Shown here one piece after another: positions 14,726 through 56,168 of a stretch of 64,000 nucleotides of DNA. The position numbers and the translations under genes are program-made. This stretch comes from a virus: UHGV virus genome UHGV-1366603. One strand, given 5' to 3'. Each line of letters begins with the position of its first letter. Position 1 is the first letter of the stretch. Under the pieces are notes generated by a model, which saw only the letters and a program-made list of their open reading frames with translations, did not search any database and had not been told where the DNA came from.

Positions 14726-14757
14726 TACCCTCCTGCTAAGCAGGAGGGTATTTATTA
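14726..14757. terminator. Bidirectional intrinsic terminator between convergent genes
   Basis: Hairpin taccctcctg-ctaa-gcaggagggta flanked by T-rich sequence on both strands. Confidence 0.65.
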
Positions 14758-15234
14758 TTCTACCGGGTGCAACATAGTGCCGGTATCTGGAATGCTGCCT
14801 TCGTGACATCTGAAGAACGTTACACCTTTACCTTCACCCGTTTTGTAGTTGACGGTAGAATACGCAAACGTTGGGGTTTTCGACAGTAACCCGTTTACAC
14901 GGTAATAGCGCTCACCGGTAACGACGTTTAAGTTACCGTCCACCTTACCTAACAGGTCTTTATAAAGTTGCGGAGATTCAATTTTACCTTCGTCCCATGT
15001 AGCGACCCAATTCGCCCCTGTATCCATGACTAACACCGAAAGGGGCATCAGTTTTAGACTAGACGGTACGGGTTTAAAATCGTCGAATTCTTGAGAAGCA
15101 CCTGTACAGGTGTAAATGACCATATCGTGTTGGTCAACAGGTACGGTGGAGAACTGACCTTCTGCGTTCGGCTGAATAGCACAACTTGCCAATGTCATTA
15201 CAAAAGCAACGACCACGAGAATGCGTTTTAGCAT
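14755..15234 (-). CDS. Putative lipoprotein
   Basis: Signal peptide MLKRILVVVAFVMTLASC with lipobox L-A-S-C; 159 aa; opposite orientation to neighbours. Confidence 0.6.
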   Translation of the reverse strand: MLKRILVVVAFVMTLASCAIQPNAEGQFSTVPVDQHDMVIYTCTGASQEFDDFKPVPSSLKLMPLSVLVMDTGANWVATWDEGKIESPQLYKDLLGKVDGNLNVVTGERYYRVNGLLSKTPTFAYSTVNYKTGEGKGVTFFRCHEGSIPDTGTMLHPVE

Positions 15235-15372
15235 AATCTCACCCTTATTAAAATTAAGAAAAATTATTTTTTCAGGTTAGCGCCTACTGCCAACCGTCAT
15301 ATCTATATTTTAGTAAATGTCTAAAATAACTTTCTTATGCAATCCACCCCTACCACTTACGAGGTAAAAACG

Positions 15373-15909
15373 ATGGCTAAAGCCTTCAATCAGCAGCTTA
15401 TCGAAGCTGTAAAAGCCAAAAACCCTGAAACTGCTTCTAATCTAACCGTAGAAGACGTTGACTTTGGTGCCGTAGAAGCACATAGCGGAAACGGTGGCCG
15501 TAACACCAAAGTTACGCTGACTGCAAAAGAAGAAAGTGCTAACTTTACTGGCAGTAAAGAATTCCACTACACTCGTCTGGCTTCTCAAGATCTGATCGGT
15601 GCCAAAGCTTACGAACAAGCCGGTAGCCTCGATCTGGAAAACTCTGTCATCGTAACCAAACTCAACGAAGAAATGGTTACTAAAGGTTATACCGATGACG
15701 CTTTCGCTGAAGGCGAACTGACCATTGAGAAAACTGAAGGGGATAGCGGCGCTAAAGTTTACACCGTTAAAGTAAACGATGCACACATTAAATTCCTGGC
15801 TGGTACTATTGCCGTCTTCACTTATTCCAACCCAGCTCCTGAGAAGGTAGCACTGAGCGGTCTGGAAGGTGAACTTGATGGCTTCACTGCACCGGGTGTC
15901 GGTGGCTAA
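15373..15909 (+). CDS. Hypothetical protein, NTKVTLTA family, paralog of 15980..16510
   Basis: Start at ATG 15373 (RBS gaggtaaaaacg). Shares NTKVTLTA...(F)HYxRL and C-terminal GELDGFTA with the next gene. Confidence 0.55.
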   Translation: MAKAFNQQLIEAVKAKNPETASNLTVEDVDFGAVEAHSGNGGRNTKVTLTAKEESANFTGSKEFHYTRLASQDLIGAKAYEQAGSLDLENSVIVTKLNEEMVTKGYTDDAFAEGELTIEKTEGDSGAKVYTVKVNDAHIKFLAGTIAVFTYSNPAPEKVALSGLEGELDGFTAPGVGG

Positions 15910-15917
15910 GTAAGCGA

Positions 15918-15950
15918 AATCGGGGGGGGGTGACCTCCCCCGATATTTCT
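15918..15950 (+). terminator. Intrinsic terminator
   Basis: G/C-rich hairpin atcggggg...cccccgat followed by T-rich tract. Confidence 0.65.
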
Positions 15951-15979
15951 CTATCTCGTTTTATTAAGGACCTAAGATA

Positions 15980-16510
15980 ATGGCCGCTACTAACCAGATG
16001 ATGTTGGTCGCGCTTTATAATGCTGCTAACACTGAGCTACCGCATCAGATTACTGATAAAGAAGTGTCCTTTGGTCTCCCTACTGCGCTGGAAGGCGAAA
16101 GTAAGAATACCAAAGTTACCATGACTGCACTACCGGGTTCTGAGAATTTCAAAGGCGAAATCGAACTGCATTACGATCGTCTGGAGCCGGGTGTTGTAGG
16201 ACGGATTGAACTAACTGACGATCTGTCTCGCTGGGTTCAAGAAAATGAACTCCGCGCTTGGTTACAATATTACATCAACAAAGTAAAACCTGACGACGCT
16301 ATCGCACCAGGCGACGTTGTGTACAACACCGAAGACCAGAAAGACGAACATGAAAACGTCACTCTGCGTACCGTGACGTGCACCGTTACCGAAAAGAACC
16401 TCCGTTATAAACCGGGTGTAATGGCAACTTTCGTAATTACACCGAAGGTTGTCGATAATCGTATTGACCTGGCCACCACCAACGGTGAGTTGGACGGTTT
16501 TACTGCTTAA
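15980..16510 (+). CDS. Hypothetical protein, NTKVTLTA family
   Basis: 176-aa ORF; NTKVTMTALPGSENFKGEIELHYDRL; ends GELDGFTA. Confidence 0.55.
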   Translation: MAATNQMMLVALYNAANTELPHQITDKEVSFGLPTALEGESKNTKVTMTALPGSENFKGEIELHYDRLEPGVVGRIELTDDLSRWVQENELRAWLQYYINKVKPDDAIAPGDVVYNTEDQKDEHENVTLRTVTCTVTEKNLRYKPGVMATFVITPKVVDNRIDLATTNGELDGFTA

Positions 16511-16540
16511 TCGCTAAGTCAACTACTATAACAAAAAATA

Positions 16541-16573
16541 ATAAGTTTACCTACCTCCGTAAAGGAGGTAGGT
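16541..16573. terminator. Bidirectional intrinsic terminator; 3' end of the long minus-strand operon
   Basis: Hairpin acctacctcc-gtaa-aggaggtaggt with T-runs on both sides. Confidence 0.7.
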
Positions 16574-16589
16574 ATTTTTTTGCCGCTAA

Positions 16590-17261
16590 TTACAGCCCTT
16601 GCTCTAATGCAAACGCTTTAATTGAATCGTAATCACGGGCTTCGGCCCAAGCTCTGACTTCTTTTTTCTGTTCCGTCATTGCCTGATGCAGTTGCTGGTC
16701 GCGTTGCACAATAGCACCCAACAGTGTTTTGCACTGCTCTACCGTAAACGGTTCGATACGGGTGTTGTTGGCCGTTAACCAGTACGCTGGCGCGGTTTCT
16801 GATTGAATATAACGACTCAGCGCTACCTGTGACTTCTCATCTGCCTGGAAAGTGAAATCACCCACCTGAATCTCGGCATAGCGCGCATCCTGATAACGGA
16901 ATTCCAATGCGCTCAGGATTTTCTGAACATCGGTAAAGATATAGCGTACGGTGGAACGTAACCCCGTACGAATCTCTTCCAAGTCAATTCCCAACGTGTC
17001 GTTAACAAAGTCTTTCGCTTTCTGTAGCGTAAAACGAGCTTCGATTTCAGACATGTCGTAGTTACGCATTTGTTCCAACGCTTCACGATCAGACATCCCA
17101 TCAATCAATTTATAGTGCAGTAACGCGCAAAAACCCGTACGACCATGATCTTCGCTACCGATTTTTTCCATATAGTTACCATGGCGGTCAATCGGTAAAT
17201 CGTGCTCAAAATAACGACGACGGATTTCTTCTTTCGTTAAGCCTTCACCAGTAGCAGACAT
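16590..17261 (-). CDS. Hypothetical protein, last gene of radical SAM cassette
   Basis: 223-aa ORF overlapping the upstream gene by 25 nt. Confidence 0.55.
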   Translation of the reverse strand: MSATGEGLTKEEIRRRYFEHDLPIDRHGNYMEKIGSEDHGRTGFCALLHYKLIDGMSDREALEQMRNYDMSEIEARFTLQKAKDFVNDTLGIDLEEIRTGLRSTVRYIFTDVQKILSALEFRYQDARYAEIQVGDFTFQADEKSQVALSRYIQSETAPAYWLTANNTRIEPFTVEQCKTLLGAIVQRDQQLHQAMTEQKKEVRAWAEARDYDSIKAFALEQGL

Positions 17262-21385: not shown

Positions 21386-21387
21386 AA

Positions 21388-22259: not shown

Positions 22260-23465
22260 TTATTTTGTACCCGCTTCCGCCTGTACGTCATCACGAGACG
22301 TCAGGTTAGCGTTAACGTGTACTGGGGCCTGAACCACACCACCGTATCTCTTGTGGAGATAACCGCTGTGCGGGTTATCTGCCGCGATGTGGTTTTGTAG
22401 GTTCTGGTTCGCTTGACTGATTGCGTTCGTGTTATTGTTAACTTGCTGTTTAAGCGCATCCAGGTTCTGTTGTACCTGATCGATTTTCTGATCGGTTTCT
22501 TGACCCTGTTGCTCTAACGCGGCAACACGCTGAATAACCTGATTCAGTTTTGTGTTTAAATCGTTGATGCTCTTTTGCAGTTGTAACACTAACGAGTTCA
22601 GGTTCGCTAACGCTAATGCCATTTTCTGGTAGTTTTGAGCAACCACGTTAAGTTGGTCGTTCCACGCTTCCAGAGAGTTGACAACAGCGTCAATACGCTT
22701 ACCTAAAGCTTCGTCCGCTTTCTTCAGTGCATTGATTTCCGTAATCGTTGCGTCGATAGCAGACTGGACGTCACGGATAAGCGCACGGATTTCAGTTTCC
22801 GTTAACCCGTTAACCTGATGGATATCAAGATGGTGAACGTTACCGGTTGAGTTAATGTGTGCATTTAAAGCGTCTAAGAAGTCATTTTTCAGGCTTTCTA
22901 AAATCGCTTTAATGTTCTCTAACTGTACTGCGTCACCAGAACTAATAGCATCTTTAATACCCGCCAATACGGTAATGATATATTCAAAACCGTAGATGTC
23001 ACCCACGTCTTTATACGTCGGTGCAGACGGGAATGTATCCGGTACGTTACGCAAGTCTTTAAACGCAATCGTACGGTTATCGAGGTTTAATTCAGCAATC
23101 GCCTGTTCGATAGCCACGATGTTCGCAGACTGTGGGCCACCAACGACCTGCGCAGATACTGTAATATCTGTTGGAATCGCTGTGTTAGTGACCACCACCG
23201 CCATAACAATCTCGCGGTTTTTAGTCAGCTTTTCATAAGTCGGGTGTGCAAAAATCAACTCATAATCGGTACCACGTTCGTAGGTTGCATCCGGTCGGTT
23301 AGCAACGCGTAAACGGAACGTGTCCGCAAAGAACGGGCCGTCAGGAAAAGCAAAAGCACGGTTTACTTTACCTGTACCTAACGTAATCTGACGCTCCACA
23401 GCGTTAGACGTTAGCGAGCCCGTTAAATCTAAAGGATATTGATAAACAATGGAGGCCATGGCCAC
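22260..23465 (-). CDS. Tail fibre protein with N-terminal anchor module and long coiled-coil shaft
   Basis: N-terminal FPDGPFFADTFRLRV...GTDYELIF resembles the N-termini of the three large upstream proteins; residues ~230-360 are heptad-rich (LNTKLNQVIQRVAALEQQGQETDQKIDQVQQNLDALKQQ). Confidence 0.6.
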   Translation of the reverse strand: MAMASIVYQYPLDLTGSLTSNAVERQITLGTGKVNRAFAFPDGPFFADTFRLRVANRPDATYERGTDYELIFAHPTYEKLTKNREIVMAVVVTNTAIPTDITVSAQVVGGPQSANIVAIEQAIAELNLDNRTIAFKDLRNVPDTFPSAPTYKDVGDIYGFEYIITVLAGIKDAISSGDAVQLENIKAILESLKNDFLDALNAHINSTGNVHHLDIHQVNGLTETEIRALIRDVQSAIDATITEINALKKADEALGKRIDAVVNSLEAWNDQLNVVAQNYQKMALALANLNSLVLQLQKSINDLNTKLNQVIQRVAALEQQGQETDQKIDQVQQNLDALKQQVNNNTNAISQANQNLQNHIAADNPHSGYLHKRYGGVVQAPVHVNANLTSRDDVQAEAGTK

Positions 23466-23499
23466 TCTCCTTTATTCGAGACGTCCTTGTCCCGAGTCA

Positions 23500-26400
23500 T
23501 TAAGATGTAAACATAAGATTGAACTGGAGTTTGTCGATATCGCGAGTTTCTGCCGGATTCACGGCATCGTACGCGGTCGCTACGTAAACGGTTAGCGTGC
23601 CGTTAGCGTAAGACGATTTCACCGGTGGGTTAGTTCCGGTCTGACCATCTCGCACAATGAGTGTAGGTTCACTTGGGAGATTATCAAACTGACCCTTGAC
23701 CGCTTTATACACCAAACCAGATTGCGCAGACAGTTCACTGTCCGTAAAGACAAAGAACGGTGTGTCGATATCTGCCTGTTTAATCGTGGTACCGGTCTCG
23801 ACGTCAATCAACTGTACCGCCCCAAACTTCGTACGATAACTTTCATACTCGTTCTTCGGAATAACGAACGTGACGTGAACGCGAACCTCCTCGGCAGGTT
23901 TAAACCCAGCGTGCTCTTTTTCCAGGTACTGGTTGGCGGTTAACGTTACCGTTTGTTCAGTCATCGTACCACCGGCCTGGTTTATTGCATACCGAGCTTC
24001 AACAATACCGGTTGGTGCAGCAAGTCGCAGTTTCAAAGCACGATTCGCCGTTCCTGGATTACCTGGCACCTGAACGCGCAAACTCAATGCTAGGTAAGCA
24101 TACGTTCCGGTAGTCGGTTTCGTATACGCACCAATCCATTTCATGTTCGCAGACGCTGCCTGCGTGTTTTCAGAAGCAGTGGCTGTCGCAATGTTGGCGG
24201 CTACCGCTTTCTGCCAGAATTGGTCAGCGCAGTTCTCATACGCTACCCTGGCCACGCTCTTATAACCCGAGTAAGTTTCCTGAATTGGTAACTTAGGACG
24301 CGTCGTAATACCAGACAGTGAACCCCATTTTTGACCGTCAACATACCCTTCACCTTTCGTCGCAGACGCCGTAGGTGCTTTAACGGGTTTGTTAACCAGC
24401 GTTAATAGAGGACCGGTCTTTCTGTCAAACGCTGCTGCTACATCGTGTTGGTCGATAATTGCCGCGTGGTCTTCCAGCTCTTTCACACGACCCAAACGTT
24501 TTACTTTGTCGATACTGATATCGGTAATACGGCTGGAATCGGTGGTTACCGTCCCGACGAACAGTCTTGTTGAAGTATCAGCTAACTGCTCCAAACCGAT
24601 ACGGTATTGCGCAGTAGAACCTGACACCTCAGCGTGCACGTAGAACGTTTGGTTAGCGTGATTGGACGGGAACTCGCTGCTTAAATCCACAGACCACGTT
24701 GGAAGTGTGTAACTGCTGCTACCGAAGTCTAACTTGACTTCTTCTGTCAAATACAGAATCCAGCCTTCTGCTGTCTCCACACCGGCAATAATAACAGCCT
24801 GACCTCCGGTTGAGAACGTCGTGTCGTTAACGAACTCTGCGGCTGTATACGCGTTACCTGAACAGAAAACACGGTCAGCTTTAGAGTAAATCAACGCCAT
24901 CTTGTCCCAATTACCGGCACCCATATAGCACCCAGATTCTGGGTTATGTGCAGGGGCCATCTGTCGTAACTGTGACTTACCAGGAACGCGAGACCAACCT
25001 GAACCTGGGTCGTAGGTATACTTCGCGGCGTAACCTAGTGCATTTAAGTCCCCGATATTTCGGATAGTTAACGTATAAGGTAGCCAAATACCGAAGTTTA
25101 CACCGTCGGCAGAAGCAAAAATTGGCTGACCGACACGTCGTGTTTTATTACCCGCTTCTTCCCTCAGAGACTGATAACTTAAACCATAATCGAGGTCTAA
25201 GAACCAGTCCACCAACTTAAAGGTGGCTGAGTTGAAACGTAAGTAGCCGTTCTCTTTAGATGGACTCACCATGAAGTAATAGATGTCAAGAATTCGACGT
25301 CCGTTACTTGAGGTTTTCATGCACGAAACTTGCAACAAGTCAAATTCGCACACGGTGTTGATACCCAACATCCAAAGAGCAAACAATGCATTACCGGTTT
25401 GATGGGCAGCGCTAATACGTTCATTCGCGTAACCATTTGCTTGACCAGATGGCGCACCGTCAACGATCATCCGAATCATTTTCTGGCGATCGGCTTCTTC
25501 TAGCGTTAAGCGTTCGGAAGACAATGCGAAATTACCGTAGATGTTACGATACGGGAACGTTTCTGCTTTGGTCAAATACCAACCGTTTAACTGCCCGTGA
25601 CGCTCCTCAGGAGTCATGCACGCAGCCATACAGCTAAGCTGCTCGTAAAGCGTTGCATCGACTTCACGACGGTTGTTGTTCGGACCGTATCCGCTATAAC
25701 CCGGAACATCGTAAGGTTTGTTCGGATCAACTTCTACTTCGATGGTGTAACGGTTACGTGGGTTAGACAACCACACTTTGTTCGAACCACCAATTCCGAC
25801 AGGATGGGAAAGACCGATGGTATAAATAGAACCGCGACCTTTATCCCAGGTAAACGTTCCTTCGCCCGAGGTGTTGTTTGGGTTATCGTAACGCAGATAG
25901 TCGAAAAGCTCTTTGCCTTGTGTTCCTTTAATAGAAACGTTCGTCATCTGGTCCGCATCGTTAATCTGCCAACAGGAAAGCATCATTCCTGTACCGTTGG
26001 GTTTAGCATACGTCGCGAAACAACGGTTGTTTGCCTGGCCACCACCCCACTTACGACTGGTTTCTACAGTTGAGCCATCCGCGAACGAGAGTGTAGTAGC
26101 ATCAGCCTTGATGGGGAAGCGTTCGCGGCCTTCTAACGTAACCTTGCCCGTCAACGTATCGATTGTGAAACTTGTTGCCCATTGACGGAAATTAATCGTC
26201 GAACCGTCTGCCGCCGCAAACCACACAGTGGGCACATGGTTCACACGAATCACGCTATCGCGTACAGCACACGCGTGGTTACATTCTGGACCGTGAACAA
26301 AGTTACGTCCGATCGTCCATTTAGCACGACCCTCCGGTGTGAGATATGTAAAGAATTGACCAGTCTGCGACTCTTCGGTCTTCTGACCAATTCGTAAACA

Positions 26401-28683: not shown

Positions 28684-28715
28684 CGTAAAGACTCCTACTT
28701 TTAAATAAAATGGAT

Positions 28716-28740
28716 ACCCCTCCCCATTACAGGGAGGGGT
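28716..28740 (-). terminator. Intra-operon hairpin with U-rich tail (possible partial terminator or attenuator)
   Basis: On the minus strand, acccctccc-tgtaatg-gggaggggt is followed by atccattttatttaaaag, just before the RBS of the 1727-aa gene. Confidence 0.45.
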
Positions 28741-28777
28741 TACCTACGGACACACAACTGCCCGCAGGCAGCCTGTC

Positions 28778-32962: not shown

Positions 32963-32972
32963 AAAATTCTCC

Positions 32973-35900: not shown

Positions 35901-37295
35901 TTGCGCAGTCAATGTTGCTTGCGTTGGATACTTAGCATTAACATAATCTGTTAACTGCGGCTTCGTTTTTCCGTAAGCTAACGCTGCATCCGTCGCAATA
36001 CCATTCAACTCTAACGCACGAATCGGGCCCCAAGTGTCAGCGTGTGGGTTATCCTTACGAGTGACGTGTTCGTGTGCAGGGGCGTTGCGATAGAGTTGTT
36101 CTACTAACTGATGGTACTTAACGATTAGCTGATAAACGTCATTACTTACGTCGGCTTCTGGCGCACCAGGTAACGCAAGGAATTGAGCGTAATCGTTTTC
36201 AGCCGCCCACCAGTTTAAGTTAACGTTGGTTTTGTATTTCAGCCACTTCGCAACGTCGGTTTTGCTGTAACCTGCTGAGAATTCGTCTGGCGGTGTGTCA
36301 ACGTTAAACGTATAGTCCATGGACTGTTTGTTAGTCGTTACCTCGATAACGTATACACCATTACCCGGCTGACGAACGACACTAAACGTTAACTCGCCTT
36401 TTAATTCATCGTCGGTCAAACCGTTGATTAACGTATAATCGTAATCGGTCGAACCACTGCCTAACGCAACCGTTAGACGTAGGCCGATTTTACGTTGTTT
36501 TAATTGGAGACGAAGGATACTTGCGCCACCGTTCGCGTAACACAACATCCAATCGATTTGTTCGTTCGGATTAATACTCCCCATATTCGGAAAAATAGCC
36601 GGAATGCGGTATTTCATCGACAGGGAATATTCATTTAACGTGGTGGTTTTGTACGTAACAGAGAAACGACGTTTAGCGGTATTGTAAGTATACCCACCTT
36701 TGTTGTCGTACGTTGCGTACTGTTCAGACGTGATAACCGTGCCATTAGCGCGATGCTCGATATCTAACGTGTTACGTGCAATCGGGTCTACCCGATTCAC
36801 CACGTTACCTAACGAATCACCTAAGCCTGCAATGGCCTGCATTAATTCCAGTTCACCTTTCCAGTTTTCCCAGTCAAACTGAATATCAACCGGTGGAAAG
36901 TAAACGTCTCCGATAACGGTATCCCATTGACACGCAGACGGGTATTTATCTTTATTGAGTTCGCGTTCTGCGGTAATCTGTTCTTGGGTCGCTTCACCAC
37001 AACCTACGGCGTGGTAATCTACCGTGAAATTCGATTTGTATTTGTCGTTAACAATCCAAATCATCCCGTGCACGAGATAGGCTGTGCGCAACATACCGGT
37101 CTCGTACGGGTGTGTAATAACGTAATCGTCGCCTAAGGTCAGTATTTTGCCGCCGCTCTTGACCACCAGGGATGTGGTGAAAAAAGGGGCGTGGGCAGGT
37201 ACCAACATTCGGTACTTCGTACCAATGACGGCGACCGCTTCACCGGTTATTTTATTCCCCGGTTCTTTGAAGTGTGGGTCTAGGACGACAGCCAT
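32973..37295 (-). CDS. Large tail fibre / tailspike-like structural protein (1440 aa); first gene of the operon in this window
   Basis: N-terminal AHAPFFTTSLVVK...GDDYVITHPY module; RBS aggag upstream; divergent from the + gene at 37363. Confidence 0.6.
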   Translation of the reverse strand: MAVVLDPHFKEPGNKITGEAVAVIGTKYRMLVPAHAPFFTTSLVVKSGGKILTLGDDYVITHPYETGMLRTAYLVHGMIWIVNDKYKSNFTVDYHAVGCGEATQEQITAERELNKDKYPSACQWDTVIGDVYFPPVDIQFDWENWKGELELMQAIAGLGDSLGNVVNRVDPIARNTLDIEHRANGTVITSEQYATYDNKGGYTYNTAKRRFSVTYKTTTLNEYSLSMKYRIPAIFPNMGSINPNEQIDWMLCYANGGASILRLQLKQRKIGLRLTVALGSGSTDYDYTLINGLTDDELKGELTFSVVRQPGNGVYVIEVTTNKQSMDYTFNVDTPPDEFSAGYSKTDVAKWLKYKTNVNLNWWAAENDYAQFLALPGAPEADVSNDVYQLIVKYHQLVEQLYRNAPAHEHVTRKDNPHADTWGPIRALELNGIATDAALAYGKTKPQLTDYVNAKYPTQATLTAQKKLLRTSTTKTADGTIGTLSGFTSFTTEVDPVSMSKYVNPYFSESYVSQGRTYHGALRYTGTKNGFSASFNAVPASLQDIDFIVTGRKTASGNEAVGRAGLRFYENPGSNSGKYVEIFGEVRSGTLTIELSLHGYGNPVPSVRYISQAPDPAIPDGDFTLRFQLKRTGNVFDAVISLNGKTYSSRINFDNMDAALEALENQHHFKSLINNVADGVSISSQNKGNTVTIKKAPGVVDEKRLGAQFVVDPKSIKFIGQGSTDVNVGNNPVTLQAGGNQLVLYPDDRGLLWRGKKLLDPTTVGPYLPGNTAGGTGLFYGASTSTVELTGSGIKASPFVATFILPVAEDVTTLACWQLTDEFGTAENLAATPALIEKLDAEFTGKLVAAKSYINDMQLTSSVTIDKITFGLGNVANTPDVDLPISVAQQTELDKYSPKVHQHPSSVFGVENADTTKRGLIKFGLDVDDVTLALDGSVVMAQTSQIEDLENTVGGVDSGARVDIIRFGKSGNDLIDVTVKDKILVTLPASTYFIGGETYDVPLMSVNVTERFPNLNKEIYAGIFVDIVDNKAKYIIHDSYSQAETDTMTRVGLIGINDLSEVFVTELRNVTRLGDFRELKDHVANDNAHIQRSAPRAVLGLSNLTVGAPCWASGLQAVVRGEADWRYVVGGGYKALDGVKYDQLASKWVFDAKGVSDNVHGFIHNLFPVFNNAGMRVSWETESNAKTGTVLETVLGCWKNTDGEFMRLSLLVTRGYRLTDSNGEYCYAGFGLNFGNGKSVVLGFTPTKRVTPAPWSTLQPDVTFTHTRGANNDLTFNASLTLAGTVYTIVVYLSAVDKYVSCTAAGGTTQKIPLSDRLTGFNIAPIVNDPYTPIYYGLGGLYEDEVRANIRSTADSITGNKLYGTLLDYISNYSSLNRVRVMELAGTSSDPETLNALVATEFNNNLADYAALPIPPYLNKERVMSFIDTNNKVQAVIIRD

Positions 37296-37362
37296 TATCT
37301 ACTCCTATAGTCCGTGGGCGTCGAGTTCATACTATGACTTGAATCTATTGAGGAAAAGAGCT

Positions 37363-38625
37363 GTGACTACTGCTTATCAAGTGCGGCCTGACAGCGCTTT
37401 TGGCTTCTCTCGTGAGACCCGTACCTGGGGAGCCATCGACGTCACGCAACCCTTAGAAACCTTGTGTTCTGATTACCATATTTTCGAAGTCGGTCTGAGT
37501 GCGCTTGGTAAAGACTATACGTTAATTAGCCAATATCACCTCGCTGACTTACAAAACCGTACCGATACATTACAAGACTGGCTGAATGAAAAAGCCGGTG
37601 TGGTTATCTCTGCGTTGAAAGACGGTTTACCGACGTTAGAGTTTGATTGGGCACACTATCAATCGATTAATGCTGATGTTCCAGTAGAAACCTATCTGTG
37701 TCCTCCTGGTTATCACTACAGTCAAGAATTCAGTATAGACGATGCTGACGACGTTGTGATTGTTTGCGAAGATAAATGGAAAGACAAATACCGTAACGGG
37801 GTGCTGTATAACATCAACGGTCAATGGGTACCACATCAGTCGGATACTGTTGGTGTACGTTTACCGGGTGCAGGTAAGATAGTACGTCGTGCAGGGACAC
37901 CGGATATCGGGTGCATGGTCTTTAGTAAATTGGGGAATGTTAAAACGTACCCCATTGCTAACTTGACCTTAAACAAACTCGACACCACCCGTGACTATTA
38001 TTCCACGTTAATGATTTCTTTACCGGAATCTATTACAGGTAAAACCGTGGGGTTTGTTATCGGGGGACTGATACACTGGTTACCGGTTACTGGGTACTTC
38101 TCCGACAAAGCCATTATGGTGTCGCTACCGAACTTTGACGTTGCGCGTACTGTGTTAGAAACACGTCGCTATTACGATTGGGACAGTATTGGTGTTGGCG
38201 ATTTATCATCGCCGACCAGCGTACAGCGTATCCGCAACCCAGAAACGTTAAAGGCGCTTTTAACCCACGAGTCGTCGTTTATCTTTACGGTGGATAATCC
38301 GTATCTGGAAGAAGAAGTTGTGGGGGTTTCTCACAACGCTATCTGGGGACGTTTATACCTTAAAGATCCTACTGACCCTGACGGGGAAAAGCAGCTGGGG
38401 TATCTGTTAAACCGCTTCGGTAAAACCGTTGCCTATTGGCCGACGTGGGAAGAAGGGGAATGGGTATTTAACACCACGGAGTTCGACAGTCAAAACTACG
38501 TGTTCCGTGAAGCCCGCTGGTATAACCAGAAGAAAATTAACGATGCACAGGCAATCGTAGGGCCTTTCGGTCCCTGGGAAAAAGTCTATTTGGAAATGCA
38601 TCGTTTCCGTGCAAGAAAAAAATAA
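37363..38625 (+). CDS. Hypothetical protein (420 aa)
   Basis: Track ORF starts at 37147 inside the 1440-aa gene; trimmed to an in-frame GTG at 37363 with RBS gaggaaaagag. Confidence 0.45.
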   Translation: MTTAYQVRPDSAFGFSRETRTWGAIDVTQPLETLCSDYHIFEVGLSALGKDYTLISQYHLADLQNRTDTLQDWLNEKAGVVISALKDGLPTLEFDWAHYQSINADVPVETYLCPPGYHYSQEFSIDDADDVVIVCEDKWKDKYRNGVLYNINGQWVPHQSDTVGVRLPGAGKIVRRAGTPDIGCMVFSKLGNVKTYPIANLTLNKLDTTRDYYSTLMISLPESITGKTVGFVIGGLIHWLPVTGYFSDKAIMVSLPNFDVARTVLETRRYYDWDSIGVGDLSSPTSVQRIRNPETLKALLTHESSFIFTVDNPYLEEEVVGVSHNAIWGRLYLKDPTDPDGEKQLGYLLNRFGKTVAYWPTWEEGEWVFNTTEFDSQNYVFREARWYNQKKINDAQAIVGPFGPWEKVYLEMHRFRARKK

Positions 38626-38629: not shown

Positions 38630-38671
38630 CCTCCTACCCTCTTAGAGGGTAGGAGTAGCACGTTTTTTTTT
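38630..38671. terminator. Bidirectional intrinsic terminator
   Basis: Hairpin ctcctaccctc-ttag-agggtaggag followed by a 10-T run. Confidence 0.7.
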
Positions 38672-38675: not shown

Positions 38676-38885
38676 TTAGTCTTTTTTGTAGACGATCGCG
38701 TTACCGTGCAGTTTGTTGTTACCGGAAATACCGATAACTTTAAACGCTTCACCGCCGATCTTTTCAGCTTCGACAGCCAGCTTAGCAGTAACGTCGTCTA
38801 CGGTGTCACCGAAAGCGCTTACGTTACCAATTTTCTTGAACTCTTCAGGAATGTGTTCAGCAGAAGAGAATTCTTTAATAGCCAT
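38676..38885 (-). CDS. DUF1471 (YhcN/BhsA/McbA-family)-like small protein lacking a signal peptide
   Basis: KKIGNVSAFGDTVDDVTAKLAVEAEKIGGEAFKVIGISGNNKLHGNAIVYKKD matches the conserved core pattern of enterobacterial DUF1471 proteins (from memory); RBS ggagag; no hydrophobic N-terminus. Confidence 0.55.
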   Translation of the reverse strand: MAIKEFSSAEHIPEEFKKIGNVSAFGDTVDDVTAKLAVEAEKIGGEAFKVIGISGNNKLHGNAIVYKKD

Positions 38886-39084
38886 AGCTACTCTCCAGTT
38901 AAAGAAAGGAAGGACTGTATCGTGTTACAACCAAAGCATAAGATAGCTCCTCCCCGAAGGGAGGAGTGAGTGCGCGAAAAAAGTGGCCTGCTTAACTAAA
39001 CGATGAGGTTTAAGAAAAGTGTTGATAAGAAGCTTACCAACGTCAGGTCACAATATATAATACCAACGTAAGAAAAAGGGGAAA

Positions 39085-40050
39085 TTAGCGTGGGCCTGAA
39101 GTTGGGCCATGTACACCGTCGTGGATGTGTACGCTGAAGGTAATACCGGAAATCACCGCATCCTTAACTGTAAAGACACCCACACCTTCACCCGTACCAC
39201 CGTATTTGAAGTTCTTAGCAACTTCCAAATTACCGGTGAACATCGCTTCATTACCCTCTTGCTTAAAGTTCGGCGTTTTATACGTTGTGGAACCGGAGGC
39301 TTCGGTTAGCCACGTTTCTGTTTTAAAGGTAACCGATTTCGACGCTTCGGTATTCCGAACTTCGCATTTCTCATTAATCGTTTTCGTTTCCAGGTTAATC
39401 GAACGTTTTGCGTAAATGAACGCATCTTCTTTGTTGATGTTCACTTTCGAGAGCATCGCGTTCTCAAAACCTAAATCGTCTTCCACCGAGTTAATGTAAT
39501 ACTTATTCCCTTTATGGTCAACGCACTGCCACGACCCGTTAGCGTTATCGAATTGGAATAACCACGCCGCTTTCTCCCCGTTCACCATACTTGTTCTTAG
39601 GGTAACGTGTTTGTCAATCGTTGAGACGTTTAACACATACGCGTTCGACAAGTCATCCGCCATCTGGTTTTCAGGGTCAGCAGACCACGCGTAAACCGCA
39701 TCCTCTAATCGCTTAACGTTAGCGAAATTCAAATCAATCCAAAAATAAATATCGGTTTGCCCTAGACGTAGCAAGATAACATAATCTTCACGCTTAACGT
39801 CTGGGGAATTAATTCGATTGGAATTAAACTTCCACCACTTTGCGGTAATCGTGTTACCGGTTTTAATCGTTAGGTTGTCGGTAGCACCCCCGGCTTCGTG
39901 TACCTTTTCAGCGGTTGAGGAAACTGACTGTACAACGGTAGGGTTCGCAAAGTTGGTTTCAATGGGAATAACACTCACCCGATCCGTACCACGAGGTTTA
40001 TCTTCCGCGACGATACCAATCGAGAAAAAGTCAACGCTGGATTTCTCCAT
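39085..40050 (-). CDS. Hypothetical protein (321 aa), possibly structural
   Basis: Long ORF with beta-rich composition; no recognisable motif. Confidence 0.5.
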   Translation of the reverse strand: MEKSSVDFFSIGIVAEDKPRGTDRVSVIPIETNFANPTVVQSVSSTAEKVHEAGGATDNLTIKTGNTITAKWWKFNSNRINSPDVKREDYVILLRLGQTDIYFWIDLNFANVKRLEDAVYAWSADPENQMADDLSNAYVLNVSTIDKHVTLRTSMVNGEKAAWLFQFDNANGSWQCVDHKGNKYYINSVEDDLGFENAMLSKVNINKEDAFIYAKRSINLETKTINEKCEVRNTEASKSVTFKTETWLTEASGSTTYKTPNFKQEGNEAMFTGNLEVAKNFKYGGTGEGVGVFTVKDAVISGITFSVHIHDGVHGPTSGPR

Positions 40051-40078: not shown

Positions 40079-40130
40079 TCAGATATATTTTACTTAGGTG
40101 AGTAGGGGCTGAAGTGCGAATTCAGCCCCT
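40079..40130 (+). promoter_or_regulatory. Copy 3 of recurring promoter-like motif plus downstream hairpin
   Basis: TCAGATATATTTTACTTAGGTGAG followed by inverted repeat aggggctgaa-gtgcgaa-ttcagcccct. Confidence 0.45.
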
Positions 40131-40438
40131 ATGGGCACGTTTCTTTCGAAACGGAGTTACCATGTGATTAGGAGACAGACCAATGTCTACTGAGAAGAAA
40201 AGCGGATTGGACGAAGTCATCGAATTGTTCAAACGCTACAACCCGGCTATTCCTCGGTAATCATAGTATTACTTAAAATTTACAGATTGTCCCTTTATTC
40301 TGCTACTCGGGATACCGGTAGGGGGTAGGGGGCAATATGTATACGGATATAAATAGCGGAGGTATACGTAGTATACCGACATACTCTTCCCAGAGGAACG
40401 TAGTGACTTCCTTATTCCTTTTTAGGAGAATAAACCTC

Positions 40439-41173
40439 ATGAGAGAATTATTAGACGATATCTTTACCAACACCAGTTTAGAACTTTCTTCTACAGTGGT
40501 TAACGAACTAATAAAACAATCGCAACCTGCTAAGTTAGTCACTGTCAGGGTAGTTAACCCTAAAGATTATCTAGGCTGCGATATCATAAACGGTACGATC
40601 GATGAGTACGCAATTGGTATTTACGCCGACTGGGTCTTCTTTGTTCTTAATACCGAAACCGGTGTCATGTTAACCTACACGATGAGTAGTGATGTCGAAC
40701 ACGAAGTTGTAGCGAAACATATTCGCCACATTGCCAGCACGCCTACCTTTTCCGACGTTACGTTTATTGGGGGAAGCACTATGCTGACGTTATTCTCTTA
40801 CTTCCCACTGTTTAGACATGGGGTAGGGTTAATCAAGCATGTAGAAAACCTTCCCGCTGATGTAGAATTAACGTTGCTCGGTCGGGACATTAGTCTTTAT
40901 CCCTTAAAAGATAACGGTAAGTTATACGGTTTACGTATCTATGTTTCTTGGTTAGAGGGATACCGCGTTATTGAACTGATTGCATCGGATTTAACAAAAC
41001 AAATCCCAGAGGTGGAAACGATTTCTAAAGCCACCCACCTGGTTGAGATTAACCCAGACGATCCGTTTTTACAGTATCACAATGAAATTGCCCTTCGTGG
41101 TATCGCTGCCGTAAAAGGGTGGGGGTGTGCTGAGATTACGAAGGGGTATCTGCTGTTAATTAAAACCGCGTAA
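40439..41173 (+). CDS. Hypothetical protein, member 1 of a tandem four-gene paralog family
   Basis: Start at ATG 40439 (RBS aggag). Shares C-terminal G-W...G..LLF-type motif with the next three genes (weakest in this member). Confidence 0.5.
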   Translation: MRELLDDIFTNTSLELSSTVVNELIKQSQPAKLVTVRVVNPKDYLGCDIINGTIDEYAIGIYADWVFFVLNTETGVMLTYTMSSDVEHEVVAKHIRHIASTPTFSDVTFIGGSTMLTLFSYFPLFRHGVGLIKHVENLPADVELTLLGRDISLYPLKDNGKLYGLRIYVSWLEGYRVIELIASDLTKQIPEVETISKATHLVEINPDDPFLQYHNEIALRGIAAVKGWGCAEITKGYLLLIKTA

Positions 41174-51520: not shown

Positions 51521-51757
51521 ATGTTAAACAGTTTCGGTGTAGGTGGAATGGATACAAGCATTTGCTGGAAAGAATACGAACGCGCAAAAGCATTTCTCCA
51601 GCATCCCAACGTGGGTAAGATCGGTCAGGTGTGTTTTGGTAAACCTGAACTGACGGCCTGTATTCAAGGTGCGTTAGGAACGCTGCCACCTGAATCACCT
51701 TTCGAGCCTAAGGAGAATCCAGATGTTACCAGGAACCCAAACCCCGTATCTATTTAG
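51521..51757 (+). CDS. Hypothetical protein
   Basis: 78-aa ORF. Confidence 0.4.
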   Translation: MLNSFGVGGMDTSICWKEYERAKAFLQHPNVGKIGQVCFGKPELTACIQGALGTLPPESPFEPKENPDVTRNPNPVSI

Positions 51758-52097: not shown

Positions 52098-52170
52098 TGT
52101 CTAAAACGTATATAGCGATTTTGGTTGAGTTAGCGATTGGCGGAACGCGGTTTATCCCTGTGCATCAATT

Positions 52171-52695: not shown

Positions 52696-52795
52696 ATATT
52701 ATCATTAGGGCACACAACAAAGGAGTTCCAGCTGTCCGCGCCGTGATTTCGTTCTACGGAACACGGAAATGTATAAATCCAACTGGAGAACTAGT

Positions 52796-53988: not shown

Positions 53989-54051
53989 TACTTGCCCCTA
54001 ATCCGATTGGATTAGGGGTACTTTTATTTATTCCCCTAAAGGAGCAAAGGT

Positions 54052-54531
54052 ATGTTGAAGTTTATCTGGCGTTACCCAACCCGCTTTTGGTTCGTGGTAT
54101 TAGAGGTAATCACCGTTTTACTGTTAGTGACGTTCGTAAACGCCTCTACGAAACAAATGGTGATTTTCTGTGTATTCGTGGCTATACCGCTGTGGGTGTT
54201 TGCAAAGATTATTAAGTTTTACATGATAAGCTGGGCGAACTACACCTGTCCATTTAAACCCAGAGAAATCATGAACTGGTTGATGTATATCGAAGACCGT
54301 TTACCCGCTCAGTCTAAAACGTTAGGTTGGCAATCGATGTTGGATATTGCGCTAGAAACAAACGCAAAATTCCCTGGGTCAAAGAATCCTTATTTGCTGC
54401 TGGCTGTTATTGTTGCCCAGCAGAAACGTGCAGGCGAACGTTGGTTACCGAAAGAAGCGAAAGAGTATATTCGTAAACATCCGAAGGCTTTCTATTCCGT
54501 AGGTCAATGGCGTAACCTCCCACTCTTTTAA
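54052..54531 (+). CDS. Hypothetical membrane protein
   Basis: Two hydrophobic segments (FWFVVLEVITVLLLVTFV; MVIFCVFVAIPLWVFAKII); RBS aaaggag. Confidence 0.5.
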   Translation: MLKFIWRYPTRFWFVVLEVITVLLLVTFVNASTKQMVIFCVFVAIPLWVFAKIIKFYMISWANYTCPFKPREIMNWLMYIEDRLPAQSKTLGWQSMLDIALETNAKFPGSKNPYLLLAVIVAQQKRAGERWLPKEAKEYIRKHPKAFYSVGQWRNLPLF

Positions 54532-54583
54532 CTTTTTACAAAACCCTTAGTTGATTTGAACAAACCTAAAGAGGACTATTAAA

Positions 54584-55516
54584 ATGACTTTTCCATCTGA
54601 AGTAATTTACGAACTGGCTAACACACTGCGCCGTCGTTATAACTACCATATGCTGCAAACCAGCGTAGGTGCAACCGCTACCTTTCTGCGCAACCATTTC
54701 CTAGGCAGTAATCAATCTTCAATTACGCAGGAAATGGTTTTCTCTATCGATCGAACCACCAAAATTCTTCCGATTGACAGTGCAATTGCGGTTCAAAATG
54801 GTGATATGTTCAACTTCTCCATGGGAATGCGCCATACAACCGTTACTGTTGACCCAAACGTAGGGATCGAACATTCTTTCATGCGCAACCCGTATCCTCT
54901 CCCGGATAGCTGGTTCGTTGTTGTAGAACAAGGGGTGAATCAGTACGAAGTTGTTGCGGCACGCGACGAGTCTTTCTTTGACTTGGGGCAGATTTCGCGC
55001 CGCCTGGAAATTGCTCTCGAACTTCGCCAAGGCAATATCGGATTAAATGGGGGCGTCGTCTACTTCATCCTGAGCAACTGGGCGCATGTGAGCTACGTCC
55101 TGAGAAAAGCTGACGCAACGTTCCACGCAACAGAAGTAAATTACCTCTCCGCTGAGAATGAAGATCAAGACGAAGAAGAAACCGTCCCTGGTACAGAAGT
55201 CGCCGTTTGCGAAGACTACGATGATCTGAAATCTGTGCTTGTTAAGCGCGATGTTTTCGAATCGTTAAACCTGGATTTCCCTGGTGACGAAAATGAAATA
55301 TCCGTAGCTGACCTGGTAGAAGCATTGTGTCAGAAAGACCAAGCTAATGAAATCAGTGACGAAGAAGCGGAACTCTTCCAAGTTCAACAACTCGTCAGCA
55401 AGGTTATCGGCGGCCAGGAAATCGTTGACACCCTTATGGCTTTACCAGCGAAGAAACGCACTCAAAAGTACATTCGTGAACTGGTTCTTAAAAATCTGGG
55501 TCAAACCAAAAAGTAA
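54584..55516 (+). CDS. Hypothetical acidic protein, paralog of 55577..56125
   Basis: Shared N-terminus (MTFPSEVIYELA vs MFPSSEYLTHLA) and motif GGVVYFILSNWAHV vs GNTVYFIFRTWNDV. Confidence 0.5.
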   Translation: MTFPSEVIYELANTLRRRYNYHMLQTSVGATATFLRNHFLGSNQSSITQEMVFSIDRTTKILPIDSAIAVQNGDMFNFSMGMRHTTVTVDPNVGIEHSFMRNPYPLPDSWFVVVEQGVNQYEVVAARDESFFDLGQISRRLEIALELRQGNIGLNGGVVYFILSNWAHVSYVLRKADATFHATEVNYLSAENEDQDEEETVPGTEVAVCEDYDDLKSVLVKRDVFESLNLDFPGDENEISVADLVEALCQKDQANEISDEEAELFQVQQLVSKVIGGQEIVDTLMALPAKKRTQKYIRELVLKNLGQTKK

Positions 55517-55523
55517 TATAAGT

Positions 55524-55558
55524 CCCCTACTCCTCCGGGAGTAGGGTTATTCTTTTTT
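55524..55558 (+). terminator. Intrinsic terminator
   Basis: Hairpin cccctactcc-tccg-ggagtaggg followed by T-run. Confidence 0.7.
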
Positions 55559-55576
55559 CCATCTTAGGAGTATTAA

Positions 55577-56125
55577 ATGTTTCCATCGTCTGAATATTTA
55601 ACCCACCTGGCTTACGGTATTCGTCGTGGTTCTGTTTTCCGTACACGTTTAAAGGATATAAATTTCCTGGCTAATTTCTTATTTGATCGTTTGGGAGATG
55701 GCAATAGCGTTTACAAAAAGATCACCACAACACAACTTTATTCCCTTATAGCAGCATCGGAAATTGTACCTACAGATATTTGGCGATTCAAACGGTATTG
55801 CGAGGGAATTACGATCAGTTTTCTTGATCATTCTCCGATTACCGTTGAAATCGTCGATCGCGTTGATATTAATAGTGAAGTATCAGGTTGGAAGATTCTG
55901 TTCGATTGTGGCAATCGTTATGCGGTACTTGGTTCCTCTGATGAGCGTGACTTCCCATTCGACAAACCCTACTACTACCTCAACGAGGATGAATTCCCGG
56001 ATAAAGAATCCAATATCTTTTTAAACGGGAATACCGTTTACTTCATTTTTCGTACCTGGAACGATGTTGCTGCTATGATTGCTCAAGGCGTCATCGATTA
56101 CCGTAAACTAGAAGTCGACATTTAA
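55577..56125 (+). CDS. Hypothetical protein, paralog of 54584..55516
   Basis: 182-aa ORF with RBS aggag. Confidence 0.5.
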   Translation: MFPSSEYLTHLAYGIRRGSVFRTRLKDINFLANFLFDRLGDGNSVYKKITTTQLYSLIAASEIVPTDIWRFKRYCEGITISFLDHSPITVEIVDRVDINSEVSGWKILFDCGNRYAVLGSSDERDFPFDKPYYYLNEDEFPDKESNIFLNGNTVYFIFRTWNDVAAMIAQGVIDYRKLEVDI

Positions 56126-56136
56126 AATAAAAGCTA

Positions 56137-56168
56137 CCCTACTCCCGAAAAGGAGTAGGGTAATTTCT
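56137..56168. terminator. Bidirectional intrinsic terminator
   Basis: Hairpin ccctactcc-cgaaa-aggagtaggg, T-rich on both sides, between convergent genes. Confidence 0.65.

What the first reader, a model, noticed from the sequence alone, without database searches (positions are those of the whole stretch)
14726..56168. Sequence-related terminator hairpins
Several intrinsic terminators use closely related stems built from CCTACCCTC, CCCTACTCC or ACCTACCTCC and their complements (14726, 16541, 38630, 55524, 56137). Three of them sit between convergent genes and look bidirectional. Shared stem sequence suggests duplication of a terminator cassette or a protein- or RNA-recognised element rather than independent origin.
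Basis: seen in the sequence. Interest (0 to 1): 0.35.

Follow-up and report, generated by a model that had tools for sequence, protein, structure and literature searches.

The report
Look-alike terminator hairpins in a jumbo phage
The five look-alike hairpins are real and are most likely transcription stop signals, mostly two-way, built to the house style already described for phiKZ-type giant phages, so this extends a known pattern to a new phage group.

Summary
All five hairpins exist at the stated places and fold stably on both strands (-18 to -23 kcal/mol). Four, not three, lie between convergent genes. The window comes from a jumbo phage distantly related to SPN3US and phiEaH2, phiKZ-like phages with their own RNA polymerases.

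The resemblance is real but loose. Inside the window it is only modestly above what C-rich, G-free arms give by chance (p about 0.01-0.05). Across the whole SPN3US genome it is clear. Terminator-like hairpins there mostly have a C/T/A 5' arm and a G/A/T 3' arm, a C-G pair closing the loop, UUCG-type loops, a "CTAC" habit and a CTTTTATTTT tail.

This architecture matches the published phiKZ and 201phi2-1 terminator motif, but the literal phiKZ consensus does not match. One stem, CCCTACTCC/GGAGTAGGG, recurs at 81 loci in IMG/VR, up to six per genome. A permuted control gave six.

Orthologous sites keep their hairpins through compensated changes. Whole stem-loops are occasionally copied between sites, and loops often flip.

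Verdict: these are ordinary intrinsic terminators, a new member of a known kind. I found no evidence for a recognising protein or RNA.

The parts
14726..14750 (.). Two-way terminator hairpin TACCCTCCTGC/taa/GCAGGAGGGTA between convergent genes 14119..14634(+) and 14755..15234(-)
   Evidence: It folds at -21.9 (+) and -22.7 (-) kcal/mol. There are 7 T of 10 downstream and 7 A of 10 upstream. Both neighbouring genes have SPN3US orthologues. Orthologous hairpins exist in SPN3US and phiEaH2.
16548..16574 (.). Two-way terminator hairpin TACCTACCTCC/gtaaa/GGAGGTAGGTA between convergent genes 15980..16510(+) and 16590..17261(-)
   Evidence: Orthologues: SPN3US CCTACCTCCC/cgaa and phiEaH2 GACCTACTACC/tttac. 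An exact 27-mer copy sits at a second site in relatives L002 and L004. The loop is inverted in L001, L003 and L005.
38631..38655 (.). Two-way terminator hairpin CTCCTACCCTC/tta/GAGGGTAGGAG between 37147..38625(+) and the 69-aa gene 38676..38885(-)
   Evidence: On the + strand the T-run starts 8 nt after the stem. On the - strand the tail is GTTACTTATTTT. Orthologues: SPN3US ACCCTACTCCC/gtt and phiEaH2 CTCCTACTCCC.
55525..55546 (+). Terminator hairpin CCCTACTCC/tccg/GGAGTAGGG with tail TTATTCTTTTTT, between co-directional genes 54584..55516 and 55577..56125
   Evidence: It is the best window hit of the profile trained on SPN3US terminators (E 9e-4). No hairpin is present at the matching SPN3US spacer. 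Its flanking genes have no SPN3US homologue.
56135..56162 (.). Two-way terminator hairpin TACCCTACTCC/cgaaaa/GGAGTAGGGTA between convergent genes 55577..56125(+) and 56170..56793(-)
   Evidence: Orthologue in SPN3US and phiEaH2: CTACCTACTCC, with three compensated pair changes. Relatives keep the stem but have loops ttcg, ttct or ttttcg.
28716..28740 (-).
38947..38966 (-).
   Evidence: profile E 0.02
53995..54018 (+).
59163..59192 (+). Same-type, imperfect hairpin GCCTCCTGTATCC/ttcg/GGGTACAGGAGGT with tail ATTTTCTTTT
4258..4286 (+). Arm-swapped relative AGGTAGTAGGGGC/taa/GCCCCTACTACCT with a T9 tail. It shares CCCTACT with 55525 and 56135 but has the purine arm first.

Best explanation
The five elements, and at least four more in the window, are intrinsic hairpin-plus-U-tract transcription terminators of a phiKZ-like jumbo phage of the SPN3US/phiEaH2 group.

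Four are symmetric and sit between convergent genes. The same DNA palindrome, with an A-tract on one side and a T-tract on the other, gives a stable hairpin followed by U's on both transcripts. It can therefore stop transcription from both directions.

They look alike for three reasons:
1. Terminators in this phage lineage follow a shared style. The 5' arm is made of C, T and A with almost no G, and the 3' arm is its G/A/T complement. C-G pairs close the loop, the loop is usually of the UUCG type, A/T interruptions are mostly written as C-T-A-C, and the tail is of the form CTTTTATTTT. The published phiKZ and 201phi2-1 terminator motif has the same architecture.
2. Orthologous terminators are inherited and drift by compensated changes, which tend to keep pyrimidines in one arm and purines in the other.
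3. Now and then a whole stem-loop is copied from one terminator site to another.

Shown here: structure, position, polarity bias, tail motif, clade-wide recurrence, copying, and compensated divergence.

Inferred: that termination actually occurs at these sites, that the phage's own multisubunit RNA polymerases are the enzymes being stopped, and why this polarity is preferred.
For: Structure and position:
- Hairpins fold at -18 to -23 kcal/mol on both strands, z -4 to -6.
- They lie 6-50 nt after stop codons of genes with SPN3US orthologues.
- They have T-rich tails and mirrored A-tracts.

Lineage:
- The window is 72-75% identical to SPN3US and phiEaH2 in conserved genes and syntenic with them.
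- SPN3US is annotated with nine RNA polymerase beta-type subunit genes.

Genome-wide style:
- Among hairpins with a T-rich tail, the C-rich arm comes first in 31 and the G-rich arm first in 10 in SPN3US, and in 9 against 4 in the window (binomial p 5e-4). T4 (100 kb) gives 2 against 10 (Fisher p 0.001).
- 27 of 57 tailed hairpins have arms with none of the minority base.
- The loop-closing pair is C-G in 39 of 40.
- TTAT occurs in 46 of 79 tails against 28.4 expected.
- In the arms, TA is 2.6-fold over-represented, and CA, AT and TT are about 3-fold under-represented.
- SPN3US arms share 8-mers or longer in 10 pairs against 1.8 expected, with 0 of 1000 shuffles reaching this.

Link to phiKZ:
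- The published motif is BCCYCCCCHWWDGGGRRGGBYTTATKYYGT, found in 61 phiKZ terminators (PMC10914365). A similar motif occurs in 59 of 132 terminators of 201phi2-1, and eight 201phi2-1 terminators were validated in vivo (PMC11512511).
- My own census of the first 50 kb of phiKZ gives 13 with the C-rich arm first against 2, with stems such as ACCCTCC/ttcg and tails such as TTTATG.
- A sequence-only profile trained on SPN3US terminators finds 8 hits at six hairpin sites in the window. It finds 11 hits in 50 kb of phiEaH2, 9 in 50 kb of phiKZ, 1 borderline hit in 100 kb of T4 and none in a shuffled window.

Recurrence and polarity:
- CCCTACTCC-N3-8-GGAGTAGGG is found at 81 IMG/VR loci (88 instances, 51 distinct flank contexts), against 6 loci for a permuted stem of the same composition.
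- There are up to 6 copies per roughly 225-kb contig.
- 38 loci are clearly SPN3US-related with the C-rich arm first. None of the 69 arm-swapped loci is.

Evolution:
- Orthologous sites in the window, SPN3US and phiEaH2 keep hairpins with compensated arm changes.
- An identical 27-nt stem-loop plus flank is found at a second site in relatives.
- The stem at site 14726 is replaced by the 56135-type stem in a sister lineage.
Against: - There are no RNA 3'-end data for this phage or any close relative, so termination is inferred.
- The literal phiKZ consensus has no match in the window with up to 3 mismatches. Stems here are longer (9-11 bp) and loops are 3-6 nt.
- The SPN3US-trained profile misses 14726 and 16548, and its E-values are weak. 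Only 55525 reaches E<0.01.
- On the + strand of 38631 the T-run begins 8 nt after the stem, which is poor geometry for an intrinsic terminator in that direction.
- Within-window statistics are only marginal.
- The enrichment of CCCTACTCC rests on a single permuted control. The arm-swapped form is also common in unrelated AT-rich phages, so part of the preference for this stem may not be specific to this clade.
- The T4 and phiKZ comparisons use partial genomes and small counts.
Confidence: 0.75

Rival explanations
1. Composition only. The hairpins are independent terminators whose likeness is a by-product of using C-rich, G-free arms. Such a small alphabet makes shared 6-9-mers common, so there is no shared ancestry or sequence-level constraint.
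For: - Within the window the excess over a within-arm shuffle is small: 17 against 8.1 pairs sharing a 6-mer or longer, p about 0.013, and for the Y-first subset p 0.05-0.2.
- No arm position except the two next to the loop is strongly conserved.
- The aligned hairpins show only 50% mean column identity and unrelated flanks.
- CCTACCCTC hairpins are near background in IMG/VR, 12 loci against 6 for a control, and 5 of the 12 are orthologues.
Against: - Genome-wide in SPN3US the excess is strong: pairs sharing an 8-mer or longer number 10 against 1.8, with 0 of 1000 shuffles reaching this.
- Dinucleotide use in the arms is far from random, with TA 2.6-fold over-represented and CA 0.36-fold.
- CCCTACTCC hairpins occur at 81 loci against 6 for the permuted control.
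- An identical 34-nt copy exists at two sites in relatives.
Confidence: 0.1
2. Recognised element. The stem sequence and its polarity are read by a phage factor. This could be a polymerase-specific termination signal, a termination or antitermination protein, or an RNA-binding protein that stabilises or sorts transcripts. The sequence itself would then be under selection, not only the fold.
For: - The polarity is strict: 38 SPN3US-related loci have the C-rich arm first and none are arm-swapped for the same 9-bp stem.
- The bias is present in terminator-like hairpins (40:14) but not in untailed ones (8:9), though that contrast is only p 0.07.
- The same stem is kept at many sites with different loops and flanks.
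- The architecture is shared with the very distant phiKZ.
- T4, which uses the host polymerase, shows the opposite polarity.
Against: - Orthologous stems differ between genera by compensated changes, as expected for selection on the fold only.
- Loops invert or change freely.
- About a quarter of terminator-like hairpins have the other polarity.
- Polarity cannot be changed by simple mutation or by inversion of a palindrome, so descent alone could preserve it.
- 201phi2-1 terminators of this type worked in a Pseudomonas reporter assay run in uninfected cells, which suggests no phage factor is needed (PMC11512511).
- No candidate factor was identified.
Confidence: 0.1
3. Small mobile or repeated palindromic element of the REP or MITE kind, which spreads through intergenic regions and only secondarily acts as a terminator.
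For: - There is presence/absence variation. The hairpins at the 55525 and 38947 sites are missing from the matching SPN3US spacers.
- An identical stem-loop with 7 nt of flank is found at a second site in relatives.
- One stem is replaced by another at site 14726.
- Twin CCCTACTCC hairpins bracket a lineage-specific gene, 55577..56125.
Against: - The shared unit is only the stem of about 20-35 nt. Flanks are not conserved between copies.
- No target-site duplications or terminal structures are evident.
- Copies sit precisely at gene ends with the A/T tracts expected of terminators.
- Most sites are orthologous across three genera.
Confidence: 0.05

Closest known systems
Conserved intrinsic-terminator motif of Pseudomonas phage phiKZ (Putzeys et al. 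2024, PMC10914365) and motif A of phage 201phi2-1 (PMC11512511)
   Same: - The host is a giant phage with its own multisubunit RNA polymerases.
- There are tens of look-alike terminators per genome.
- The 5' arm is C/pyrimidine-rich and the 3' arm G/purine-rich.
- Loops are short and UUCG-like.
- The U-rich tail contains TTAT.
- A fraction are two-way.
- My census of 50 kb of phiKZ shows the same polarity (13:2), and a profile trained on SPN3US terminators hits phiKZ hairpins.
   Different: - The literal consensus does not match (0 hits with up to 3 mismatches).
- Stems here are 9-11 bp rather than about 7 bp.
- Stems are interrupted by TA ('CCTAC', 'CCCTAC').
- Loops vary from 3 to 6 nt.
- Tails read CTTTTATTTT rather than YTTATKYYGT.
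- No 3'-end mapping exists for this lineage.
Two-way intrinsic terminators between convergent bacterial genes
   Same: A near-perfect palindrome is flanked by an A-tract and a T-tract between convergent genes, and it is stable on both strands.
   Different: That is a general class without a shared stem sequence. Here the stems follow a lineage-specific style and polarity.
DNA uptake sequences that double as terminator stems in Neisseria and Haemophilus (Kingsford et al. 2007, PMC1852404, seen)
   Same: One specific short sequence recurs as an inverted repeat in many terminators of a genome.
   Different: There the sequence is kept because the DNA-uptake machinery reads it. Here no reader is known, the stems are variable, and no single invariant word exists.
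REP/BIME-type repeated extragenic palindromes
   Same: They are short GC-rich palindromes repeated in intergenic regions, often at 3' ends of genes.
   Different: REPs have a conserved sequence beyond the stem and typically lack the U-tract. Here only a loose style is shared and the A/T tracts are canonical for terminators.

Membership tests
Intrinsic (factor-independent) terminator | Stable GC-rich RNA hairpin | tested here: met
   -18.3 to -23.2 kcal/mol, z -4.0 to -6.1, and 0 of 200 shuffles fold as well, on both strands
Intrinsic (factor-independent) terminator | U-rich tract directly 3' of the stem | tested here: met
   At least 7 T in the 10 nt after the stem for 14726, 16548, 55525 and 56135 on the + strand. 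Minus-strand tails are T-rich for the four convergent sites. Exception: on the + strand of 38631 the T-run starts 8 nt after the stem.
Intrinsic (factor-independent) terminator | Lies just downstream of a gene end | tested here: met
   All five lie in spacers 6-50 nt after stop codons. Seven of the nine flanking genes have SPN3US orthologues.
Intrinsic (factor-independent) terminator | Transcript 3' ends or termination measured at the site | not testable with these tools
   No RNA data are available. Related 201phi2-1 terminators were validated in vivo (PMC11512511).
Two-way terminator | Lies between convergent genes, with mirrored A- and T-tracts and a hairpin stable on both strands | tested here: met
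   Met for 14726, 16548, 38631 and 56135. 55525 is co-directional.
phiKZ-type conserved terminator motif | Genome of a phiKZ-like phage with its own multisubunit RNA polymerases | tested here: met
   The window is homologous and syntenic to SPN3US and phiEaH2. SPN3US is annotated with nine RNAP beta-type subunit genes. No RNAP gene lies inside the window itself.
phiKZ-type conserved terminator motif | C/pyrimidine-rich 5' arm and G/purine-rich 3' arm | tested here: met
   All five show it. In the window it is 9:4 among tailed hairpins, in SPN3US 31:10 and in 50 kb of phiKZ 13:2. T4 gives 2:10.
phiKZ-type conserved terminator motif | Four-nucleotide loop (HWWD in the consensus) | tested here: inconclusive
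   Loops of the five are 3, 5, 3, 4 and 6 nt. Relatives have ttcg at the 56135 site. In SPN3US ttcg/cgaa loops dominate.
phiKZ-type conserved terminator motif | TTAT within the U-rich tail | tested here: met
   46 of 79 tails against 28.4 expected, with 0 of 2000 shuffles reaching this. It is present after 14726 (+), 55525 (+), 16548 (-), 38631 (-) and 56135 (-).
phiKZ-type conserved terminator motif | Match to the published consensus CCYCCCCHWWDGGGRRGGBYTTAT | tested here: not met
   0 matches in the window with up to 3 mismatches
phiKZ-type conserved terminator motif | Sequence-level similarity to terminators of other members, by a profile trained on SPN3US | tested here: inconclusive
   55525 (E 9e-4), 56135 (E 0.1) and 38631 (E 0.4) are recovered. 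14726 and 16548 are not. phiKZ gives 9 hits in 50 kb, T4 gives 1 in 100 kb and a shuffled window gives 0.
REP/MITE-like repeated palindrome | Conserved sequence extending beyond the stem, with element ends or target duplications | tested here: not met
   Flanks and loops differ between copies. Only one case of 7 nt of shared flank was found.

The most novel reading that the evidence does not exclude
The arrangement of a C-rich arm first, a G-rich arm second, then UUUUAUUUU is a termination code specific to the unusual multisubunit RNA polymerases of nucleus-forming jumbo phages. It would be conserved from Pseudomonas phiKZ to enterobacterial SPN3US-like phages. Polarity and the 'CTAC' habit would then matter for function, either for the polymerase itself or for a phage factor that handles transcript 3' ends, and would not be mere inheritance.
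Probability: 0.2. Interest if true: 0.55.

Novelty: new member of a known kind. Interest (0 to 1): 0.3.

Why it matters
- It gives a practical rule for marking transcription-unit ends in SPN3US, phiEaH2 and related jumbo phages, for which no transcript maps exist.
- It extends the conserved-terminator phenomenon reported for phiKZ and 201phi2-1 to a distant enterobacterial branch.
- It sets up a testable question: do these phage polymerases prefer one hairpin polarity?
- It flags these repeats as likely sites of short-patch copying and loop flipping that can confuse alignments and assemblies.
- The two-way versions are candidate compact insulators for synthetic biology.

Tried and rejected
- The literal phiKZ consensus was searched in the window and gave 0 hits with up to 3 mismatches. 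This is therefore not a literal member of that motif.
- Rfam at gathering thresholds gave no hit in the window.
I used three exact stems and two controls instead.
- A covariance model of SPN3US terminators was planned. MAFFT shifted equal-length sequences by 1-2 columns and broke the pairing register. I built an ungapped sequence profile with hmmbuild/nhmmer instead.
- CCTACCCTC as a recurrent clade-wide stem was rejected. It gave 12 loci, of which 5 are orthologues of the 38631 site.
- The GGAG-containing 3' arm as the ribosome-binding site of the next gene was rejected. Four sites are convergent, and at 55525 the real start has its own TAGGAG about 20 nt further on.
- H-DNA or triplex formation was rejected on first principles. 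The arms are inverted repeats, not mirror repeats.
- A literature search for a described SPN3US or Erwinia jumbo-phage terminator motif found none in the library.

Full report
**1. The observation**

- 14726-14750: TACCCTCCTGC/taa/GCAGGAGGGTA
- 16548-16574: TACCTACCTCC/gtaaa/GGAGGTAGGTA
- 38631-38655: CTCCTACCCTC/tta/GAGGGTAGGAG
- 55525-55546: CCCTACTCC/tccg/GGAGTAGGG
- 56135-56162: TACCCTACTCC/cgaaaa/GGAGTAGGGTA

As RNA they fold at -18.3 to -23.2 kcal/mol on either strand, z -4.0 to -6.1. They lie directly after gene ends.

Four, not three, sit between convergent genes. The partner of 38631 is a 69-aa minus-strand gene with a YdgH/BhsA domain and an SPN3US orthologue. 55525 lies between co-directional genes.

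The mechanical scans find about 19 strong intergenic hairpins in the window. Those at 28716, 38947, 53995 and 59163 are of the same type. The one at 4258 carries the same words with the arms swapped.

**2. Is it more than chance?**

CCTAC...GTAGG occurs 4 times against 0.8 expected. The arms are low-complexity, with C about 57%, T 22%, A 16% and almost no G. I therefore also shuffled bases within each arm. In the window the excess is modest:
- 17 against 8.1 pairs share a 6-mer or longer (p about 0.013).
- 6 against 1.9 pairs share a 7-mer or longer (p about 0.016).
- There is one shared 9-mer (p about 0.04).

Seen in the window alone, the resemblance is mostly composition plus a small surplus.

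**3. Where the window comes from**

The window matches Salmonella phage SPN3US and Erwinia phage phiEaH2 at 72-75% identity in conserved genes. It is syntenic with SPN3US at roughly 130-190 kb. SPN3US is annotated with nine RNA polymerase beta-type subunit genes. From established knowledge these are phiKZ-related phages that transcribe with their own virion and non-virion polymerases. Closer relatives, at 88-96% identity, exist only as IMG/VR contigs.

**4.

I took the complete SPN3US genome and listed every perfect hairpin with a stem of at least 8 bp and at least 5 G/C.

Among those with a T-rich tail:
- The C-rich arm comes first in 31 and the G-rich arm first in 10. In the window it is 9 against 4. 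The combined binomial p is 5e-4.
- 27 of 57 have no minority base at all in the arm.
- The loop-closing pair is C-G in 39 of 40, and ttcg/cgaa loops dominate.
- Tails contain TTAT in 46 of 79 cases against 28.4 expected. A typical tail is (G/C)CTTTTATTTT.
- Within arms, TA is 2.6-fold over-represented and CA, AT and TT about 3-fold under-represented. This gives the 'CTAC' look.
- SPN3US arms share 8-mers or longer in 10 pairs against 1.8 expected, with 0 of 1000 shuffles reaching this.

So the similarity does not vanish genome-wide. It is a property of most terminators of the lineage.

T4, which uses the host polymerase, shows the opposite polarity in 100 kb: 2 against 10, Fisher p 0.001. Its arms also mix G and C.

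**5. Known counterpart**

Putzeys et al. (PMC10914365) mapped phiKZ 3' ends. They found 61 intrinsic terminators sharing 5'-BCCYCCCCHWWDGGGRRGGBYTTATKYYGT-3'. The 201phi2-1 study (PMC11512511) found a similar motif in 59 of 132 terminators and validated eight in vivo.

My census of the first 50 kb of phiKZ gives 13 with the C-rich arm first against 2. Stems include ACCCTCC/ttcg and TAGCCCTCCTG/gtgcaa, which resembles window 14726. Tails include TTTATG.

A sequence-only profile built from 29 SPN3US terminators gives:
- 8 hits at six hairpin sites in the window (55525, 38947, 56135, 38631, 53995, 28716)
- 11 hits in 50 kb of phiEaH2
- 9 hits in 50 kb of phiKZ
- 1 borderline hit in 100 kb of T4
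- no hits in a shuffled window

The literal phiKZ consensus has no match in the window. This is the same architecture with a different local consensus.

**6. Recurrence of particular stems**

- CCCTACTCC-N3-8-GGAGTAGGG, the stem of 55525 and 56135, occurs at 81 IMG/VR loci (88 instances, 51 flank contexts, 65 with T-rich tails). These are mostly in 220-250 kb contigs, with up to six copies per contig. Loops and flanks differ between copies.
- A permuted stem of the same composition gave six loci, none terminator-like.
- 38 of the 81 loci are clearly SPN3US-related by tblastx. None of the 69 loci with the arms swapped is. Within this clade the polarity of this stem is therefore strict.
- CCTACCCTC, the stem of 38631, is not recurrent. 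It gave 12 loci, five of them orthologues.

**7. How the sites evolve**

The window, SPN3US and phiEaH2 keep a hairpin at the same spacer at five sites, with arm differences compensated in the partner arm. For example, TACCCTACTCC becomes CTACCTACTCC at the 56135 site, and CTCCTACCCTC, ACCCTACTCCC and CTCCTACTCCC occupy the 38631 site in the three phages. The hairpins at the 55525 and 38947 sites are absent from SPN3US.

Copying between sites does occur:
- The exact 27-nt stem-loop of 16548 plus 'ataagtt' lies at a second convergent site in two relatives. That site is orthologous to SPN3US gp012/gp011, which in SPN3US carries a different stem.
- In a sister lineage the 14726 site carries TACCCTACTCC, the 56135-type stem.

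**8. Interpretation**

The best reading is ordinary intrinsic termination, two-way at four sites, in the house style of phiKZ-like phages. Likeness comes from that style, from inheritance with compensated drift, and from occasional copying.

Nothing positively indicates a recognising protein or RNA:
- No arm position is invariant apart from the loop-closing pairs.
- Orthologous stems drift.
- Loops flip.

The strict polarity and the contrast with T4 leave open that the phage polymerases prefer this polarity. Descent can also explain it, because inverting a palindrome does not change polarity. Termination itself, and the identity of the polymerase being stopped, are inferred rather than shown.

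**9. Verdict**

This is a new member of a known kind, of modest interest.

Noticed in passing
window 16548-16574, 38631-38655, 55525-55546, 56135-56162, 53995-54018 versus L001, L179/L172/L176, L049, L049, L033: At orthologous hairpins with identical stems and at least 94% identical flanks, the loop is often the exact reverse complement: gtaaa/tttac, tta/taa, tccg/cgga, cgaaaa/ttttcg and gatt/aatc. Loop flipping between the inverted arms seems to be the commonest change at these sites. It swaps which transcript gets the UUCG-type loop.
   Followed up: partly
window 14726-14750 versus L021:7716 and L031:2347: In a sister lineage (flanks 76-82% identical) this site carries TACCCTACTCC, the stem of the 56135 site, instead of TACCCTCCTGC. 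This looks like replacement by copying between terminators.
   Followed up: partly
window 54584-56125: The two genes 54584..55516 and 55577..56125 have no tblastn match in SPN3US and no Pfam domain. The second is bracketed by the twin CCCTACTCC hairpins. This could mean that shared terminator stems mark or mediate gene-cassette exchange.
   Followed up: no
window 40103-40131: A strong hairpin, TAGGGGCTGAA/gtgcgaa/TTCAGCCCCTA, lies in a divergent intergenic region between 39085..40050(-) and 40337..41173(+). It has no T-tail, so it is unlikely to be a terminator. It might be an operator or a 5'-leader structure.
   Followed up: no
window 7071-7094: The hairpin CCCTCTCAGG/aatt/CCTGAGAGGG has no T-tail and ends 12 nt before the start codon at 7107. 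Its 3' arm runs into the GGAG-like ribosome-binding region, so it may mask translation initiation.
   Followed up: no
window 15919-15944: A terminator-like hairpin contains a run of nine G (ATCGGGGGGGGGTGACCTCCCCCGAT) between co-directional genes. Homopolymer length may vary between relatives.
   Followed up: no
L092-L160 (IMG/VR loci): The arm-swapped hairpin GGAGTAGGG-loop-CCCTACTCC is also frequent (69 loci, 37 contexts, 64 with T-rich tails), but only in phages unrelated to SPN3US. These are mostly AT-rich with A/T loops, and 22 copies are one orthologous locus. Why this particular 9-bp stem is popular in unrelated phages is unexplained.
   Followed up: partly
window 22260-37295 (minus strand): Four adjacent paralogous virion-protein genes (401, 1727, 1394 and 1440 aa) share PHROG families 2163, 7449, 8078 and 7557. 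They correspond to SPN3US gp099-gp096.
   Followed up: no
window 360-1643: A 427-aa ORF has strong matches to tail-fibre families, including C-terminal matches to T4-type long tail fibre distal subunit families. It may be a host-range module exchanged with unrelated phages.
   Followed up: no
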